From Clostridia bacterium (GTDB taxonomy: Bacteria; Bacillota; Clostridia; Christensenellales; Aristaeellaceae), in contig JAKSQG010000008.1 in assembly GCA_024404275.1 (NCBI GenBank), forward strand, positions 1 through 22,979: a stretch of DNA of 22,979 nt, read 5' to 3'. Shown here piece after piece: positions 1 through 22,979 of the stretch; the stretch's first letter is position 1, and each line of letters starts with the position of its first letter. Under the pieces are notes generated by a model that ran no database searches, was not told the origin of the DNA, and worked only from the letters and a program-made list of their open reading frames with translations. A program made the translations under genes and the position numbers.

Positions 1-504
1 CCTCGTTGGCTTCCTTGTCAGCGGTGAGGGAGGCAATGGCAGCCTCGCTGGCCTCCTTGTCGGCGGTGAGGGAGGCGATGGCGGCCTCGTTGGCTTCCTT
101 GTCAGCGGTGAGGGAGGCAATGGCAGCCTCGCTGGCTTCCTTGTCGGCGGTGAGGGCGGCGATAGCAGCCTCGCTGGCTTCCTTGTCAGCGGTGAGGGAG
201 GCGATAGCAGCCTCGTTGGCTTCCTTGTCGGCGGACAGGGCAGCGATGGCGGCCTCGTTGGCTTCCTTGTCAGCGGACAGGGCAGCGATGGCAGCCTCGT
301 TGAGTTCCTTGTCAGCGTACAGGGCAGCGATGGCGGCCTCATTCGCTTCCTTGTCATCGGTGATGGAGGCAATGGCCGATTCGTTGGTCTCCTTGACCGC
401 AGTCAGGGCGGCGATGGCGGCTTCATTGGCTTCCTTATCGGCGGACAGGGCAGCAATGGCAGCCTCGTTGGCTTCCTTGTCGGCGGTGAGGGCGGCAATT
501 TCAG
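1..504. repeat. 42-bp tandem repeat, 12 consecutive units (encodes the 14-aa coiled-coil repeat on the minus strand)
   Basis: Units start at 1, 43, 85, 127 ... 463. Consensus is cctcgttggcttccttgtcagcggtgagggaggcaatggcag. Units 1-42 and 85-126 are identical. The repeat degenerates after about 504. Confidence 0.95.
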
Positions 505-694
505 CCGCGTTTGCTTCGTTGGCGGCGTTCAGCTCGGCAATGCGCGCCGTATCGGCGGTACACTGTTCACTCAGCTGCCGCACTGTGGTCTCGGCATCCG
601 TGCGCTTGTTTTTTTCATCGATAAAAAAGTACGCAAGAACACCGCCGACCGCAATCATAATGGCCAGCAGAATTGCCAGTACCTTCTTTGCCAT
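1..694 (-). CDS. Membrane-anchored coiled-coil repeat protein, N-terminal part only (gene runs off the left edge of the window)
   Basis: Absent from the ORF track because it has no stop in the window. Minus-strand ATG at 694-692, GGAGG (revcomp of 703-707) 8 nt upstream. Hand translation: MAKKVLAILLAIMIAVGGVLAYFFIDEKNKR (one TM helix), then a 14-aa unit AAIA(A/S)LTADKEANE repeated to the window edge. The frame stays open down to position 2. Confidence 0.8.
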   Translation of the reverse strand, partial: MAKKVLAILLAIMIAVGGVLAYFFIDEKNKRTDAETTVRQLSEQCTADTARIAELNAANEANAAEIAALTADKEANEAAIAALSADKEANEAAIAALTAVKETNESAIASITDDKEANEAAIAALYADKELNEAAIAALSADKEANEAAIAALSADKEANEAAIASLTADKEASEAAIAALTADKEASEAAIASLTADKEANEAAIASLTADKEASEAAIASLTADKEANE

Positions 695-748
695 GGTCAG
701 GACCTCCGTTTTTTTCAGCGGAATACAAGGAAGCGGGGGAGAGGGGAA

Positions 749-1715: not shown

Positions 1716-2831
1716 ATGGCAGTACAGCCGGACAGCCGCGGAACGTGCATCAGGGTCAACCTGACAGCCCTTGCCGAAAACGCCGCGGCACTGAAAAAAG
1801 CCGTGGGCGCCGTTCATATGATGGCCATTGTCAAGGCCAACGCGTATGGTCATGGCATGGTGCAGGTAGCCCGCGTCGCGTTGGAGAACGGCGCTGATTT
1901 TCTGGGCGTGGCGACCCCGTAGGAGGGTCAGGCGCTGCGTGAGGCGGGCTTGACCGCCCCGGTGCTGGTGTTGGGCAATACCGGCATCGATGGTGCGCGC
2001 ATTTGCGCCGCAAACGGCATTACCCAGGCGGTCTGCGATGCAGACGGCGTAAGGCGCATGCAGCGCGCCTGTGAAGAACTTCAGATGACGGCGTAGGTAC
2101 ATCTCAAGTGCGATACCGGCATGAGCCGCATCGGTGTGAGAAGCGAGGAAGAGGTACAGCAGGTACTGGATGCGTTGAACGAGTGTCCTGCTGTGAAGCT
2201 CACCGGCGCGTTCATGCATTTTGCGGCGGCAGACGGCGACGAAGCCTTTGCCCGCAAACAGTTTGACACCTTTATGCGTCTGACGGCACCGCTGCCGGCG
2301 GGCATTGTGCGCCACGCGGCGGCCAGTGACGCTTCCATCCGCTTCCCCTGGGCACGGCTCGATATGGTCCGCGAGGGCATTTCGCTCTACGGCTGCCCGG
2401 GCGTGCAGAGTGGGATCACGCTGCGTTATGCCATGAGCTTTGAAACACGGGTGGAATTTATCAAGACACTGCCTGCGGGCGAAACGGTGGGCTACGGCCG
2501 CACCTGGACGGCTCCGCGGGAAACACGTGTGGCGACCCTTGGCGTGGGCTATGGTGACGGCTATCTGCGTTCCGCCTCCGGCAAGGCACAGGTGCTGATC
2601 GGGGGACAGCTGTGCCCCGTGATCGGGCGTGTATGCATGGATCAGATCATGGTGGATGTGACCGATGTGCCCGGTGTGCAGGAAGGCGACTGCGCTGTAT
2701 TGATGGGGCGTCAGGGCGAAATGGAGATCACCCCCGATCAGCTGGCTGCCTGGGCGGGCACCATCAGCTATGAGGTCATGCTCTCTCCCCATCCCCGCGT
2801 ACCCGTCCTATATTATGAGGAAGGAAAATAA
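1716..2831 (+). CDS. alr: Alanine racemase, full length (371 codons) only if two in-frame TAG codons are read through
   Basis: One continuous frame: 1716 to TAG(1920), to TAG(2094), to TAA(2829). PLP-lysine motif MAIVKANAYGHG lies before the first TAG. VHLKCDTGMSRIG follows immediately after the second. Further downstream come VGYGRTW, GVGYGDGY, GRVCMDQIMVD and ISYEV. No frameshift. Confidence 0.9.
1920..1922 (+). other. In-frame TAG codon 1 in alr (context acc ccg TAG gag ggt)
   Basis: 1920-1716=204, divisible by 3. Protein context GVATP*EGQALREAGL. Confidence 0.95.
2094..2096 (+). other. In-frame TAG codon 2 in alr (context acg gcg TAG gta cat)
   Basis: 2094-1716=378, divisible by 3. Protein context ELQMTA*VHLKCDTGM. 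Confidence 0.95.
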
Positions 2832-16520: not shown

Positions 16521-17231
16521 ATGCGAAAAGGCGAATTGCGCCGTCAGGCGCTGCTGGACGTGGCGCGGCAGCTGTTTTATGAAAAAGGCTACCGCGAGAC
16601 TTCGGTGGATGATATCCTGCAGGCGCAGGGCTGCAGCAAGGGCAGCTTTTATCACTGCTTTGATACTAAACTGGATGTGCTGACCGCCATCAGCGAGGAA
16701 AAAGCCGCGGAATGGTTTGATCTGTACTGCAAGACGCCGTGTGCCACCTCGCTGGACCGGCTGAACGCGCTGCTTTATTGCATGCATCCCTTCCGGCAAA
16801 GGGAAGAGCAGTTTTTATCCACTCTGCTGGAGCTGCGCTCCCGATAGGAAAGCGCGGCTGTGGAGGGGGCGCTGCGGGATGCGGAACGCAGACTGTTCAA
16901 GTCCGAAATGGAAAAGATCGTCATGATGCTGTGCGCTTCGGATACGGCGCGTGTGGCGCGCACAAGGCTGGACGCGTTGGTGTTTGAAGCCTTTACCGCG
17001 TTTTATGATGAGATGCTGCTGACCATTGACCTGTGCCGCAAGGACCCGGAAGAGGTGTATTCTCTGCTGCCGCCGGTCATTGATTCCGCACGTTTTTTGT
17101 GGGAGCGTGTGCTTGACCTGCCCTACGGACGATTGGAGATCGTGCGGCCCGAGGAAGCATTGCCCCTGATTTATCGTTTGCTGACAACCGGCACCGACGC
17201 CGGTCAAAACACGGAGGTAACCGAATCATGA
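16521..17231 (+). CDS. TetR/AcrR family transcriptional regulator, full length (236 codons) only if one in-frame TAG is read through
   Basis: HTH motif GYRETSVDDILQAQGCSKGSFYHCFDTKLDVL. ORFs 16521..16847 and 16860..17231 share one frame, separated only by TAG at 16845 plus 4 sense codons. GGAGGAG RBS. Stop TGA overlaps the next ATG. Confidence 0.85.
16845..16847 (+). other. In-frame TAG codon in the tetR-family gene (context tcc cga TAG gaa agc)
   Basis: 16845-16521=324, divisible by 3. Protein context LELRSR*ESAAVEGAL. Confidence 0.9.
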
Positions 17232-20150: not shown

Positions 20151-21140
20151 ATGAAATTCAAGCATTTTTTCTGGGATTTTGACGGCACCCTGTTTGATAC
20201 CTACGGACGCATCGCCCGTGCGGCACAAAAATCGCTGCGGGATCATGGCGTTGACGTCACGATGGAAGAGCTGATGCCCGCTGTCAAGGTGTCGATCCCC
20301 CACGCGTGGAAGACCTTTGCTCCGCAGTTTGAGCGTAAGGAGCTGTCATCGACCTATCATCAGTACGCCGAAGAGGAAGGCTATGACACCATGCAGCCCT
20401 ATCCCGGGGCCATTCGCATGCTGGAAGCGGTGGTGGAGAACGGCGGCTGCAACTATCTGTATACGCTGCGCGGAAAAAGCGCCCTTGAAGCGCTGGATTA
20501 TTATGGCTTGAAGGGTTTGTTTCGTGATTGTGTGACCTCGCTGGACGGCTTCCCCGGAAAGCCCGCCCCCGACGCGCTCAATCATCTGGTGGAAAAATTC
20601 TCCCTGGATACCAAGGAGTGCATCATGATGGGCGACCGCGATATCGACCTCAATGCCGGCTTCAACGCGGGCATGAGCGCGGCTTTATTTGACCCCGAGG
20701 GATGGTATACCGATTTTCCCATTGATCGCCGCTACAATACCTTCTTTGACATGACCGCCGACCTGGTGTGGGAAAAGTGCGAGAAGAACCTGCAGGTGCG
20801 TGACCTGTTTGACATGCAGGAAAGGCTGCAGAAGCAGTTTGAGTCCAAATGGGGCGGCATAACGCCCAAGCGCGGACGGGAGCAGACGCTGTGGATGGTG
20901 GGGGAGATCGGTGAGGTCATTGACATCATCAAAAAGAACTCCGCTGAAAAGATCATGACGCGTCCCGAGCTGAAGCGTCTGCTGGCGGAAGAGCTGGCCG
21001 ATGTGAGCATGTATCTGTATGATGTGCTGCTGTGCTACGGCATCACGCCGGAGGAGTTTGCCGAGGTCTATCTGGAAAAACATCTGCACAACATGGGACG
21101 CGATTATCATCGTGAGCATGTTGAAAAGTACGGAAAGTAA
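20151..21140 (+). CDS. Fusion protein: HAD-superfamily phosphatase (N-terminal) plus MazG-like NTP pyrophosphohydrolase domain (C-terminal)
   Basis: HAD motif I FWDFDGTLFDT and motif IV MGDRDIDLNAG. C-terminal half has VGEIGEVIDIIKK and EELADVSMYLYDV, the acidic helices typical of MazG or dimeric dUTPase-like enzymes. Stop TAA. Confidence 0.8.
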   Translation: MKFKHFFWDFDGTLFDTYGRIARAAQKSLRDHGVDVTMEELMPAVKVSIPHAWKTFAPQFERKELSSTYHQYAEEEGYDTMQPYPGAIRMLEAVVENGGCNYLYTLRGKSALEALDYYGLKGLFRDCVTSLDGFPGKPAPDALNHLVEKFSLDTKECIMMGDRDIDLNAGFNAGMSAALFDPEGWYTDFPIDRRYNTFFDMTADLVWEKCEKNLQVRDLFDMQERLQKQFESKWGGITPKRGREQTLWMVGEIGEVIDIIKKNSAEKIMTRPELKRLLAEELADVSMYLYDVLLCYGITPEEFAEVYLEKHLHNMGRDYHREHVEKYGK

Positions 21141-21143
21141 ACC

Positions 21144-22979
21144 ATGCTGAGTGCAAACCTGAAAACCAAGATATCGATGCTGCCCGACAGCCCCGGCTGC
21201 TACCTGATGAAGCACGAGGGCAAGATCATTTATGTCGGCAAGGCTGTCAACCTCAAAAACCGTGTGCGCAGCTATTTTTACTCCAAAGAGCACACGCCCA
21301 AGGTAGCGGCCATGGTGGCGCAGATCGATGATTTTGATATTCTGCTGTGCAGCACCAATCTGGAAGCGTTGGCGCTGGAATGCAACCTGATCAAGCTGCA
21401 CATGCCGCATTACAACATCCTGCTCAAGGATGACAAGCACTACCCTTATGTGCGCATCGACAAGCGGGAGGCGTTTCCGCGGGTCACCATTGCACGGCGC
21501 ATGGTCAAGGATGGCGCGCAGTATTTTGGTCCGTATATCGGTGCCTCGGCGGTGCGGGATGCGCTGGAAGTGATCCGCAAGGCCTTTCCCATCCGCACCT
21601 GCACCCGTAAGCTGCCCAAGGAGCGCCCGGCCCGTCCCTGCGTGAACCATGAGATCGGACGTTGTCTGGGTCCGTGCTGCGGATTGTGCTCGGCGGAGGA
21701 TTACGGCAAGGTCATTGACGGTGTCATCGCCTTTTTGAACGGCAACAACAAGGAGATCATTGAGCGGCTGAAAAAGGAAATGTGGGACGCTTCCGCTGCC
21801 TATAACTTTGAGCTGGCAGCCATGAAGCGTGATGCCATTCACGATATCGAAGGACTGATGGAGCAGCAGAAGGCCATTCAGACGCGTGACAGCCAGCAGG
21901 ATGTGATCGGTCTGGCACAGGATGGACTGGATGCCATGGCGCAGGTGCTCATCATCCGCGATGGACGCATGATCGGCGGCGAAAGCTTTGCACTGCCGGG
22001 AGAGGGCTCGTAGCCGCGTGAAAACGTGCTGACATAGTTTACGCTGCGCTATTATGCCGACCGCATGCCCCCGAAGGAGATTCTGTGTCCCCTGATGGAG
22101 GAGCCGGAAGTGCTGCAGGAGCTGCTGCGCGAAAAGCGGGGCGGCGCTGTCAATATTCAGATTCCGCAGCGCGGGGATAAGCGCGCGCTGGTGCTGATGG
22201 CGGAGCGCAATGCCTGCGACGCACTGGAAAAACGCAATGCCCGTGCGCAGATCAAGGAAGAACGTACCGTTGGTGCTGTCAGGGAGCTGGCGCAGGCACT
22301 GGGCATGAAAACCGTGCCGAGGCGCATTGAGGGCTTTGATATTTCCAACACACAGGGTGTGCTGTCTGTCGCTTCCATGGTGGTGTTCATCGATGGTGAG
22401 GCAGCGCACAGCGAATACAGGCATTTTCGCATCAAGACGGTGGAGGGCGCCAACGATTTTGCCTCCATGAACGAGGTGCTGGGGCGGCGCTTTGAGCGTA
22501 CGCTGCGGGAGGATCCTGCCGAGCGCTGGGTAATGCCCGATATGGTGCTGATCGACGGCGGTCCCGAGCAGCTGCGCTTTGCACTGGAAGCGGTGCATGC
22601 GCTGGGGCTGGAGGTGCCCATGTTTGGTCTGGCAAAGGAGGAAGAAGCCATCTGGCTGCCTGACCGTGAGGAACCCATCCTGCTGGATCATCACACGCCC
22701 GCGCTGCATCTGATTCAGCGCATCCGCGATGAGTCGCACCGCTTTGCCATTTCGTATCACCGCAGCCTGCGCGGAAAGGCGGCGACGCATTCCACGCTGG
22801 AGGATATTCCCGGCATTGGTCCTTCCCGCAGGAGAGCGCTGCTGGCGCACTTTGGTTCCATTCGCAAGATGAAGGAGCTGGATGATCCCGAAGCGCTGCT
22901 GGTGGTCAAGGGGATGACACGCCCCGCGGCGGAGGCGGTCTTTGCCGCGCTGCATCCGAAGGACGAAGAAGAGAAATAA
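21144..22979 (+). CDS. uvrC: Excinuclease ABC subunit C, full length (611 codons) only if two in-frame TAG codons are read through
   Basis: GIY-YIG motif GCYLMKHEGKIIYVGKAVNLKNRVRSYF and the UVR domain lie before the TAGs. RIEGFDISNTQG, IDGGPEQL, IRDESHRFAI and the HhH motif LEDIPGIGPSRRRALL lie after them. One frame throughout: 22011-21144, 22035-21144 and 22065-21144 are all divisible by 3. Stop TAA. Confidence 0.92.
22011..22013 (+). other. In-frame TAG codon 1 in uvrC (context ggc tcg TAG ccg cgt)
   Basis: Protein context ALPGEGS*PRENV. Confidence 0.95.
22035..22037 (+). other. In-frame TAG codon 2 in uvrC (context ctg aca TAG ttt acg)
   Basis: Protein context ENVLT*FTLRYYADRMPPKEIL. 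Confidence 0.95.

What the first reader, a model, noticed from the sequence alone, without database searches (positions are those of the whole stretch)
22011..22037. uvrC carries two TAGs eight codons apart, in the linker before the endonuclease domain
The sequence GEGS*PRENVLT*FTLRYYADRMPPKEIL lies between the UVR domain and the RNase H-like / HhH C-terminal half. The second TAG directly precedes the F-x-x-(Q/R)-Y-Y motif that I recall from E. coli (ETFVGQFY) and B. subtilis (LTFIGQFY) UvrC. Everything downstream is intact and in frame (RIEGFDISNTQG, IDGGPEQL, IRDESHRFAI, HhH). Two amber codons this close with a fully preserved downstream domain argue for efficient decoding rather than rare leaky read-through.
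Basis: partly seen in the sequence, partly recalled or inferred. Interest (0 to 1): 0.7.

Follow-up and report, generated by a model that had tools for sequence, protein, structure and literature searches.

The report
Amber codon read as glutamate
The two in-frame TAG "stop" codons in this bacterium's uvrC repair gene are real and are almost certainly translated as glutamate, part of a lineage-wide change of the genetic code (TAG = Glu) that is not among the bacterial codes listed in the papers I read.

Summary
The same two TAGs occur in at least three independent assemblies.

They are not gene damage.
- The reading frame, Pfam domains and residue-by-residue homology continue across them.
- Sequence downstream is under strong purifying selection, dN/dS 0.02-0.06, including between strains that both carry the TAGs.

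The phenomenon is not confined to uvrC.
- In this window, alr has two in-frame TAGs and a tetR gene has one.
- Sister strains add TAGs in uvrC (codon 475), udk, deoR, an ABC permease and prkC. That makes ten sites in seven genes, all TAG.

The encoded residue is most likely glutamate.
- Outgroup genomes have GAG at all three uvrC sites, and the sister MAG has GAA and GAG at codons 290 and 298.
- Homologues have Glu in 33/33 (uvrC-290) and 47/47 (alr-69) sequences.
- Over six columns, Glu beats any other residue by 10^4.8 to 10^8.

Two sites are shared by two lineages that differ by about 10% in DNA, so the decoding is old and stable.

The decoding tRNA and the status of RF1 could not be examined. 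Surveys from 2021 to 2026 list no TAG sense reassignment in bacteria.

The parts
21144..22979 (+). uvrC coding sequence, 611 codons, read through two TAGs, ends in TAA
   Evidence: Four Pfam domains lie in one frame. dN/dS against L001 is 0.031 (codons 1-289), 0.016 (291-474) and 0.041 (476-611). dN/dS against the TAG-bearing strain L002 is 0.061 for codons 291-611.
22011..22013 (+). In-frame TAG, uvrC codon 290; inferred Glu
   Evidence: TAG in the window, L002 and L003. GAA in the sister MAG L001 and GAG in outgroups L008 and L011. Homologue column is Glu in 33/33. It lies in the loop before helix 292-303 of the first RNase H-like domain.
22035..22037 (+). In-frame TAG, uvrC codon 298; inferred Glu
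   Evidence: GAG in L001, L008 and L011. Homologue column is E16 D12 A3 G2, and the eleven closest homologues printed all have E. It lies inside helix 292-303 and directly precedes the invariant F299.
1716..2831 (+). alr (alanine racemase) coding sequence with two in-frame TAGs
   Evidence: Pfam Ala_racemase_N spans both TAGs and Ala_racemase_C follows. dN/dS for codons 128-371 against L012 is 0.108.
1920..1922 (+). In-frame TAG, alr codon 69; inferred Glu
   Evidence: TAG in the window, L004, L012 and L137, so it is shared by both sub-lineages. Homologue column is Glu in 47/47. Solved alanine racemases have E or D here.
2094..2096 (+). In-frame TAG, alr codon 127; inferred Glu
   Evidence: GAG in strain L137 and AAT in L012. 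P0277 has E and P0121 has G. The column is variable: Q17 E9 D8 and others.
16521..17231 (+). TetR-family regulator coding sequence with one in-frame TAG
   Evidence: Pfam TetR_N. dN/dS for codons 110-236 against L001 is 0.096.
16845..16847 (+). In-frame TAG, tetR codon 109
   Evidence: TAG in the window, L001, L002 and six further Logan assemblies L138-L143. Homologue column is G31 E11 S7, and the closest homologue has D.

Best explanation
In this uncultured Clostridia lineage the amber codon UAG is a sense codon read as glutamate. The lineage comprises MAGs GCA_024500545.1 and GCA_045599485.1 and related strains.

The two TAGs in uvrC arose from ancestral GAG codons by single G-to-T changes, which are synonymous under this code. 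UvrC is therefore made as one full-length 611-residue protein with Glu at positions 290 and 298.

Shown here:
- TAG is translated in frame as one residue in seven genes.
- The residue is Glu-like.
- The state is inherited and under purifying selection.

Inferred from how every known stop-codon reassignment works:
- A tRNA with anticodon CUA, most simply a copy of tRNA-Glu(CUC) mutated at position 36, is charged with Glu.
- If this lineage, like most Firmicutes, lacks GlnRS, its GluRS is the non-discriminating type. That enzyme already tolerates C or G at position 36, which would make acceptance of A36 plausible.
- Release factor 1, which reads UAG, is lost or weakened. TAA and TGA, read by RF2, end all 38 or so genes seen.
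For: In-frame TAG with homology on both sides:
- uvrC-290 and uvrC-298, alr-69 and alr-127, and tetR-109 in the window.
- uvrC-475, deoR-9 and a MalG-type permease in L001.
- udk-98 in L002 and prkC-366 in L144.
- Pfam domains span the sites.

Identity of the residue:
- Outgroups have GAG at all three uvrC columns.
- Strain partners of TAG are GAA, GAG, GAG and GAG, plus CAG twice.
- Homologue columns are uvrC-290 E 33/33, alr-69 E 47/47, uvrC-298 E16 D12, uvrC-475 E19 Q11, alr-127 Q17 E9 D8, tetR-109 G31 E11.
- The joint likelihood puts Glu ahead of the runner-up by 10^4.8 to 10^8.1.
- Even the udk-98 column has E as its commonest residue.

Translation downstream of the TAGs:
- dN/dS is 0.016-0.108 at dS 0.2-0.57.
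- dN/dS is 0.061 within the clade that carries the uvrC TAGs.

Age and reproducibility:
- alr-69 and tetR-109 are TAG in both lineages, which are 90-91% identical in DNA.
- The sites recur in independent assemblies from NCBI, ENA and Logan.

Other points:
- No shared downstream RNA structure exists at the TAG sites.
- No in-frame TAA or TGA occurs in any of these genes.
- All gene ends seen are TAA or TGA.
Against: - No tRNA gene of any kind was found in the lineage DNA I could reach. That DNA is roughly 40 kb non-redundant and roughly 95 kb across strains, my estimate from the locus lengths.
- A scan of JGI metagenomes for a tRNA-Glu-like anticodon arm with CUA found nothing relevant.
- RF1 could not be examined.
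- The absence of TAG terminators is not significant. It is 0 of about 38 genes here, but only 4 of 65 in related standard-code genomes, giving P of about 0.1.
- Two strain partners of TAG are CAG (udk-98, deoR-9), so some Gln decoding, or mixed decoding, is not excluded.
- TAG is rare: 5 in 6,948 codons, about 1% of presumptive Glu codons. It has so far been seen only in genes I would expect, from general knowledge, to be weakly expressed; this was not tested. That could mean decoding is less efficient than for ordinary codons.
Confidence: 0.8

Rival explanations
1. Partial amber suppression. The lineage carries a suppressor tRNA but keeps RF1, so TAG is ambiguous. Most ribosomes stop and a fraction read through, and full-length UvrC is a minor product.
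For: TAG is rare (5 in 6,948 codons). It has been found only in genes I would expect to be weakly expressed (uvrC, alr, tetR, udk, deoR, permease, prkC). The lack of TAG terminators is not statistically significant. RF1 status is unknown.
Against: Two TAGs in one gene would square any inefficiency, yet uvrC and alr each carry two. alr is normally essential (general knowledge), although a second racemase gene elsewhere in the genome cannot be excluded. TAG at alr-69 and tetR-109 has persisted across dS 0.1-0.4 instead of reverting to GAG. New TAGs keep arising at Glu codons in different strains, as expected for a nearly neutral exchange.
Confidence: 0.12
2. TAG is read as glutamine, as in TAG-recoded gut phages (code 15) and classical supE suppressors. 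The Glu-to-TAG sites would then be Glu-to-Gln replacements.
For: Two strain partners of TAG are CAG (udk-98, deoR-9). Q is common in the uvrC-475 and alr-127 columns. A CUG-to-CUA anticodon change in tRNA-Gln is the commonest natural route to an amber suppressor (general knowledge).
Against: uvrC-290 and alr-69 are Glu in 33/33 and 47/47 homologues with no Gln. Solved alanine racemases have only E or D at alr-69. Outgroup codons are GAG at all three uvrC sites. The joint likelihood of Gln is at least 10^5 lower than that of Glu.
Confidence: 0.05
3. The genes are pseudogenes or split genes. UvrC would be made as a Cho-like 289-residue N-terminal nuclease and, separately or not at all, a 304-residue C-terminal half. 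NCBI annotated it this way.
For: Gene callers and NCBI annotate the fragments: MCQ2453173.1 is 289 aa. An ATG lies 10 codons after the second TAG.
Against: No Shine-Dalgarno sequence precedes that ATG. The 17 codons that a split gene would leave untranslated, including the invariant F299 and Y304, show 6 synonymous and 0 non-synonymous changes. dN/dS downstream equals that upstream. Only TAG occurs, never TAA, TGA or frameshifts, in seven genes.
Confidence: 0.02
4. Sequencing or assembly artefact, for example G-to-T damage errors.
For: Three of the uvrC changes are G-to-T at the first base of GAG.
Against: The same TAGs occur in independent assemblies from different samples and pipelines. The TAG sites differ between strains in a phylogenetically consistent way.
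Confidence: 0.01

Closest known systems
UGA stop-codon reassignments in bacteria: table 4 (UGA to Trp; Mycoplasmatales, some endosymbionts, Eggerthellaceae) and table 25 (UGA to Gly; Absconditabacteria and Gracilibacteria)
   Same: A stop codon becomes a sense codon across the chromosome of a bacterial clade. It is recognised by in-frame stops in conserved housekeeping genes that align with one amino acid. It is expected to work through a tRNA with a matching anticodon and loss of the matching release factor.
   Different: The codon here is UAG, not UGA, so the factor to lose is RF1, not RF2. The amino acid is Glu. The genome is GC-rich (57.6%), not AT-rich or reduced. The papers I read list only UGA changes among bacterial stop codons (PMC8629427; bioRxiv 10.64898/2026.04.02.715157; PMC13462651).
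UAR to Glu nuclear codes of eukaryotes: peritrich ciliates (table 30) and Blastocrithidia nonstop (table 31; PMC12153298)
   Same: UAG is read as glutamate, presumably through a tRNA-Glu with a stop-matching anticodon.
   Different: These are eukaryotic nuclear genomes with a single eRF1. UAA is reassigned together with UAG. Here only UAG changed, and TAA remains a frequent terminator (12 of 25 genes in the window).
TAG to Gln recoding in gut phages: code 15; Lak, crAss-like and others (bioRxiv 10.1101/2021.08.26.457843; PMC10879173)
   Same: The amber codon is used as a sense codon in prokaryotic-type genes from gut or animal microbiomes. Gene callers split the genes in the same way.
   Different: Those are phage genomes that carry their own suppressor tRNA and infect standard-code hosts, and the residue is Gln. 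Here the context is a bacterial chromosome (rpmH, rnpA, yidD, yidC, jag, alr, coaD, uvrC) and the residue is Glu.
Pyrrolysine decoding of TAG, including archaea with all TAG read as Pyl (bioRxiv 10.1101/2024.09.30.615893; PMC12626013)
   Same: TAG is read as an amino acid in a prokaryotic cell.
   Different: Pyl is tied to methylamine methyltransferases and the pyl gene set. Pyl sites do not align with invariant Glu. Here the sites are ordinary Glu positions of housekeeping proteins derived from GAG.
Laboratory amber suppressor strains and RF1-free recoded E. coli (C321.deltaA; PMC4434889; PMC11903333)
   Same: This is the mechanism I infer: a CUA-anticodon tRNA decodes UAG, and RF1 becomes dispensable once few or no genes end in TAG.
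   Different: Those are engineered or selected in the laboratory. This is a natural lineage in which the state has lasted long enough for two sub-lineages about 10% apart in DNA to inherit it.
Sporadic conserved in-frame stop codons attributed to read-through in bacteria (PMC7918605)
   Same: In-frame stops in intact-looking bacterial genes, conserved between related genomes.
   Different: That survey found all three stop codons, dN/dS of 0.66-0.82 around them, and no single amino-acid meaning. Here the stop is TAG only, dN/dS is 0.02-0.1, and the sites point to Glu.

Membership tests
Clade-wide stop-codon reassignment (alternative genetic code) | One stop codon occurs in frame in many unrelated conserved genes, with homology continuing on both sides | tested here: met
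   Ten TAG sites in seven genes (uvrC x3, alr x2, tetR, udk, deoR, permease, prkC). Pfam domains span or flank them..
Clade-wide stop-codon reassignment (alternative genetic code) | The sites align with one specific amino acid in homologues | tested here: met
   Glu in 33/33 and 47/47 at the two conserved columns. The joint log10 odds for Glu over the runner-up are 4.8-8.1 on six columns. Outgroup codons are GAG.
Clade-wide stop-codon reassignment (alternative genetic code) | Sequence downstream of the codon is under purifying selection | tested here: met
   dN/dS is 0.016-0.108 downstream of the TAGs and 0.061 between two TAG-bearing strains.
Clade-wide stop-codon reassignment (alternative genetic code) | The state is inherited within a clade | tested here: met
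   alr-69 and tetR-109 are TAG in both MAG lineages, which are 90-91% identical in DNA. Relatives with 77-79% identical UvrC show no in-frame TAG in 29 kb.
Clade-wide stop-codon reassignment (alternative genetic code) | The codon is no longer used to end genes | tested here: inconclusive
   0 of about 38 genes end in TAG, but relatives use it in only 4 of 65, so P is about 0.1.
Clade-wide stop-codon reassignment (alternative genetic code) | A tRNA with the matching anticodon (CUA) is present | tested here: inconclusive
   No tRNA gene in any lineage locus. One metagenome scan for a Glu-type CUA anticodon arm found nothing relevant. The whole MAGs could not be scanned.
Clade-wide stop-codon reassignment (alternative genetic code) | The cognate release factor (RF1, prfA) is lost or altered | not testable with these tools
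Pyrrolysine system | TAG lies in methylamine methyltransferase genes and the pylTSBCD genes are present | tested here: not met
   The TAG sites are in uvrC, alr, tetR, udk, deoR, a permease and prkC, at Glu columns. The pyl genes could not be searched genome-wide.
Phage-type TAG to Gln code (code 15) | TAG columns are dominated by Gln, in a phage genome context | tested here: not met
   The two invariant columns have no Gln. The gene content is chromosomal, around rpmH-rnpA-yidC-jag.
Pseudogene or split gene | Mixed stop types or frameshifts, relaxed constraint downstream, and an independent start for the second half | tested here: not met
   Only TAG occurs. dN/dS is at most 0.11. No Shine-Dalgarno sequence precedes ATG 22065.
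Context-dependent recoding (SECIS- or PYLIS-like element) | A conserved RNA structure lies next to the recoded stop | tested here: not met
   The folding energy of the 60 nt after each window TAG has z from -2.07 to +1.54 relative to 192 GAG sites. Both uvrC sites are weaker than average. There are no Rfam hits.

The most novel reading that the evidence does not exclude
A natural bacterial genetic code in which amber UAG is a dedicated glutamate codon. It would be shared by at least two sub-lineages, about 10% apart in DNA, of an uncultured GC-rich Clostridia genus. It would run on a tRNA-Glu-derived CUA tRNA and an RF1-free termination system. This would be the first reassignment of UAG to a standard amino acid in a cellular prokaryote and the first stop-to-Glu change outside eukaryotes.
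Probability: 0.65. Interest if true: 0.92.

Novelty: new variant of a known kind. Interest (0 to 1): 0.85.

Why it matters
The papers I read list only UGA among bacterial stop-codon reassignments (to Trp or Gly). Amber had been seen as sense only in phages (Gln) and with pyrrolysine. A free-living, GC-rich gut-type Clostridia lineage that reads UAG as Glu would matter in several ways.

- It would add a new bacterial code.
- It would show that UAG can be captured in a genome without AT pressure or genome reduction. Here the ancestors already used TAG for only about 6% of gene ends.
- It would give a natural counterpart to RF1-free recoded E. coli, including the question of whether such a host resists standard-code phages and mobile elements.

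There is also a practical consequence. Public annotation of these MAGs with table 11 cuts genes into fragments (UvrC 289 aa, Alr 236 aa, TetR 108 aa). That lowers apparent genome quality and adds truncated proteins to the databases.

A natural tRNA(CUA) and GluRS pair would also interest genetic-code engineers.

Tried and rejected
tRNA hunt
- ARAGORN on the window and all lineage loci found none. Rfam found nothing in the window.
- A scan of JGI metagenome contigs for CCKCCCTCTAACGGMGG (a Glu-type anticodon arm with CUA) gave 116 stretches. Only one was tRNA-like, in an unrelated 1.1-kb contig.

Extending the locus
- Exact-protein look-ups gave only short contigs of 18 kb or less.
- Going through cluster members worked once more and produced L144 with the prkC site.

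Tests that came out weak
- "All in-frame stops are TAG" is only moderately significant, because TAG is the most reachable stop with this codon usage (55-62% of nonsense paths).
- "No gene ends in TAG" is not significant, because relatives also rarely use it.

Other negatives
- There is no shared sequence context or downstream hairpin at the TAG sites.
- The PDB holds no solved structure for the UvrC segment that carries the TAGs, so an AlphaFold2 model of a homologue was used instead.
- Five full-text literature searches found no report of a bacterial TAG-to-Glu code. The one supplementary file held for the 2026 KACI preprint does not mention these assemblies.

Explanations rejected: pyrrolysine, Gln decoding, split genes, sequencing error and structure-dependent recoding. 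The reasons are given under the rival explanations and the membership tests.
Full report
**The observation**

uvrC occupies window 21144..22979 on the + strand. It has 611 codons and ends in TAA. There are in-frame TAGs at 22011-13 (codon 290) and 22035-37 (codon 298), seven sense codons apart.

Pfam finds GIY-YIG, UvrC_RNaseH (PF22920, residues 252-363), the catalytic UvrC_RNaseH_dom (384-536, E 1.7e-51) and HHH_5, all in a single frame.

The one error is the word "linker". PF22920 covers both codons. In an AlphaFold2 model of the 79%-identical homologue P0001, residue 290 lies in the loop after strand 275-283 and residue 298 lies inside helix 292-303. No solved structure covers this segment.

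**Not an artefact**

- The window comes from a 23,024-bp contig of NCBI MAG GCA_024500545.1, annotated as "Clostridia bacterium". There UvrC is annotated as a 289-aa protein.
- The identical 289-aa product is found in ENA ERZ27247129 (L002) and Logan ERR6929691 (L003), and both TAGs are present in that DNA. Two more Logan assemblies carry a 289-aa product.

**Not confined to uvrC**

- In the window, alr (1716..2831) has TAG at codons 69 and 127, and a tetR gene (16521..17231) has TAG at codon 109. Pfam domains run across or beside these sites.
- A sister MAG, GCA_045599485.1, supplies contigs L012 and L001, which are 90-91% identical in DNA to the window. It shares TAG at alr-69 and tetR-109.
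- The sister MAG has GAA and GAG at uvrC-290 and uvrC-298. It has its own TAG at uvrC-475, where the window has GAG.
- Further TAG sites: deoR codon 9 and a MalG-type permease in L001, udk codon 98 in L002, and prkC codon 366 in L144.
- The total is ten sites in seven genes, all TAG, with no in-frame TAA, TGA or frameshift.
- The tetR TAG recurs in six more Logan assemblies.

**The codon is translated**

- Homologues align across each site with exactly one residue and no gap.
- Against the sister MAG, dN/dS is 0.031 for uvrC codons 1-289, 0.016 for 291-474 and 0.041 for 476-611, at dS 0.42-0.57. It is 0.108 for alr 128-371 and 0.096 for tetR 110-236.
- Between the window and L002, which both carry the two uvrC TAGs, codons 291-611 have 31 synonymous and 6 non-synonymous differences, giving dN/dS 0.061.
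- A split gene would leave 17 codons untranslated. Those codons show 6 synonymous and 0 non-synonymous differences, and ATG 22065 has no Shine-Dalgarno sequence.
- There is no common downstream RNA structure and no Rfam element.

**Which amino acid**

- Outgroup genomes with 77-79% identical UvrC have GAG at all three uvrC sites.
- Strain partners of TAG are GAA, GAG, GAG (uvrC) and GAG (alr-127 in L137). Two are CAG (udk-98, deoR-9), and AAT or Gly also occur at the variable alr-127.
- Homologue columns:

| Site | Residues in homologues |
|---|---|
| uvrC-290 | E 33/33 |
| alr-69 | E 47/47 |
| uvrC-298 | E16 D12 A3 G2 |
| uvrC-475 | E19 Q11 |
| alr-127 | Q17 E9 D8 and others |
| tetR-109 | G31 E11 S7 |
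| udk-98 | E14 T8 A6 K5 Q3 |

- Solved alanine racemases have E or D at alr-69.
- A Codetta-style likelihood over six columns puts Glu ahead of the next residue by 10^4.8 to 10^8.1, depending on the pseudocount.
- The two CAG partners sit in variable columns. They are most simply Gln-to-Glu replacements by a C-to-T transition. Mixed Glu and Gln decoding cannot be excluded.

**Mechanism**

Shown: in-frame decoding of TAG as a Glu-like residue, inherited across two sub-lineages and still spreading to new GAG codons.

Inferred from how all known reassignments work:
- A CUA-anticodon tRNA is charged with Glu. The simplest origin is tRNA-Glu(CUC) with C36 changed to A.
- If this lineage, like most Firmicutes, lacks GlnRS, its non-discriminating GluRS already accepts two different bases at position 36. 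This is established knowledge for such enzymes and was not tested here.
- RF1 is lost or weakened.

I could not find the tRNA or examine prfA. All of the roughly 38 gene ends seen are TAA or TGA. Relatives use TAG at only 4 of 65 ends, so this is not significant. It does suggest that the ancestor was already TAG-poor, which is the condition for codon capture.

**What is weak**

- The sample is about 40 kb of non-redundant sequence (my estimate from the locus lengths).
- TAG is rare, 5 in 6,948 codons.
- All-TAG has P of only about 0.003-0.009 (from the fractions).
- Decoding efficiency was not measured.

**Comparison with what is known**

- Shulgina and Eddy (PMC8629427) state that all known bacterial stop-codon changes affect UGA.
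- A 2026 survey of 2.7 million assemblies lists the same known set and adds only sense-codon changes.
- A 2024 preprint counts three codes in Bacteria.
- UAG to Glu is known in peritrich ciliates and Blastocrithidia, where it comes together with UAA. UAG to Gln is known in phages. UAG to Pyl is known in archaea and some bacteria.
- The case here works like tables 4 and 25 but with a different codon, a different release factor and a different amino acid, so I rate it a new variant of a known kind.

**Verdict**

My confidence is 0.8 for the explanation as a whole. Confidence is higher that TAG is translated and lower for the tRNA and RF1 details.

Noticed in passing
window 2..748 (-); L012 3..2624 (-): The N-terminal part of a membrane-anchored protein built from tandem repeats of about 13 residues (AAIAALTADKEANE...). 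It is 874 aa in the sister contig. Contigs of this lineage tend to end in it.
   Followed up: partly
window 21144..22013, 2121..2831, 16521..16847: The public NCBI annotation of the source contig calls TAG-truncated fragments as proteins: UvrC 289 aa (MCQ2453173.1), Alr 236 aa (MCQ2453149.1) and TetR 108 aa (MCQ2453166.1). Table 11 mis-annotates this MAG.
   Followed up: yes
L144 4286 (Logan SRR27361835): prkC has an in-frame TAG at codon 366, in the first PASTA repeat. The kinase half and the PASTA half are called as two separate genes.
   Followed up: partly
L001 10488..13586 versus L002 7329..8232: An ABC sugar-uptake cassette (binding protein plus two permeases) lies between deoR and the FAD oxidoreductase in L001 and is absent from L002. 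Its second permease carries the in-frame TAG at L001 13443.
   Followed up: partly
L013 9753..11251; L014 4736..6234; L019 3474..4806; L017 6514..6602: In relatives with at least 90% identical YebC, a tRNA-Ser(CGA) gene follows yebC. In three of the four it is followed by a phage-type integrase and a mobile element, which looks like an integration hot spot. Three of the four TAG-terminated genes seen in relatives are in L013, two of them inside this mobile region.
   Followed up: no
L017 2142..2791: The HAD hydrolase is called as two overlapping fragments in one relative. This looks like a frameshift rather than a stop codon.
   Followed up: no
L042 354..425 (JGI Ga0180110_1284393): A 72-nt tRNA-like gene with anticodon CUA on a 1.1-kb metagenome contig, unrelated to this lineage. 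It turned up in the anticodon-arm scan.
   Followed up: no
window 20685..22955 (-): A 756-codon stop-free ORF lies antisense to uvrC. It is a shadow ORF of the kind GC3-rich genes produce and is not a gene.
   Followed up: no
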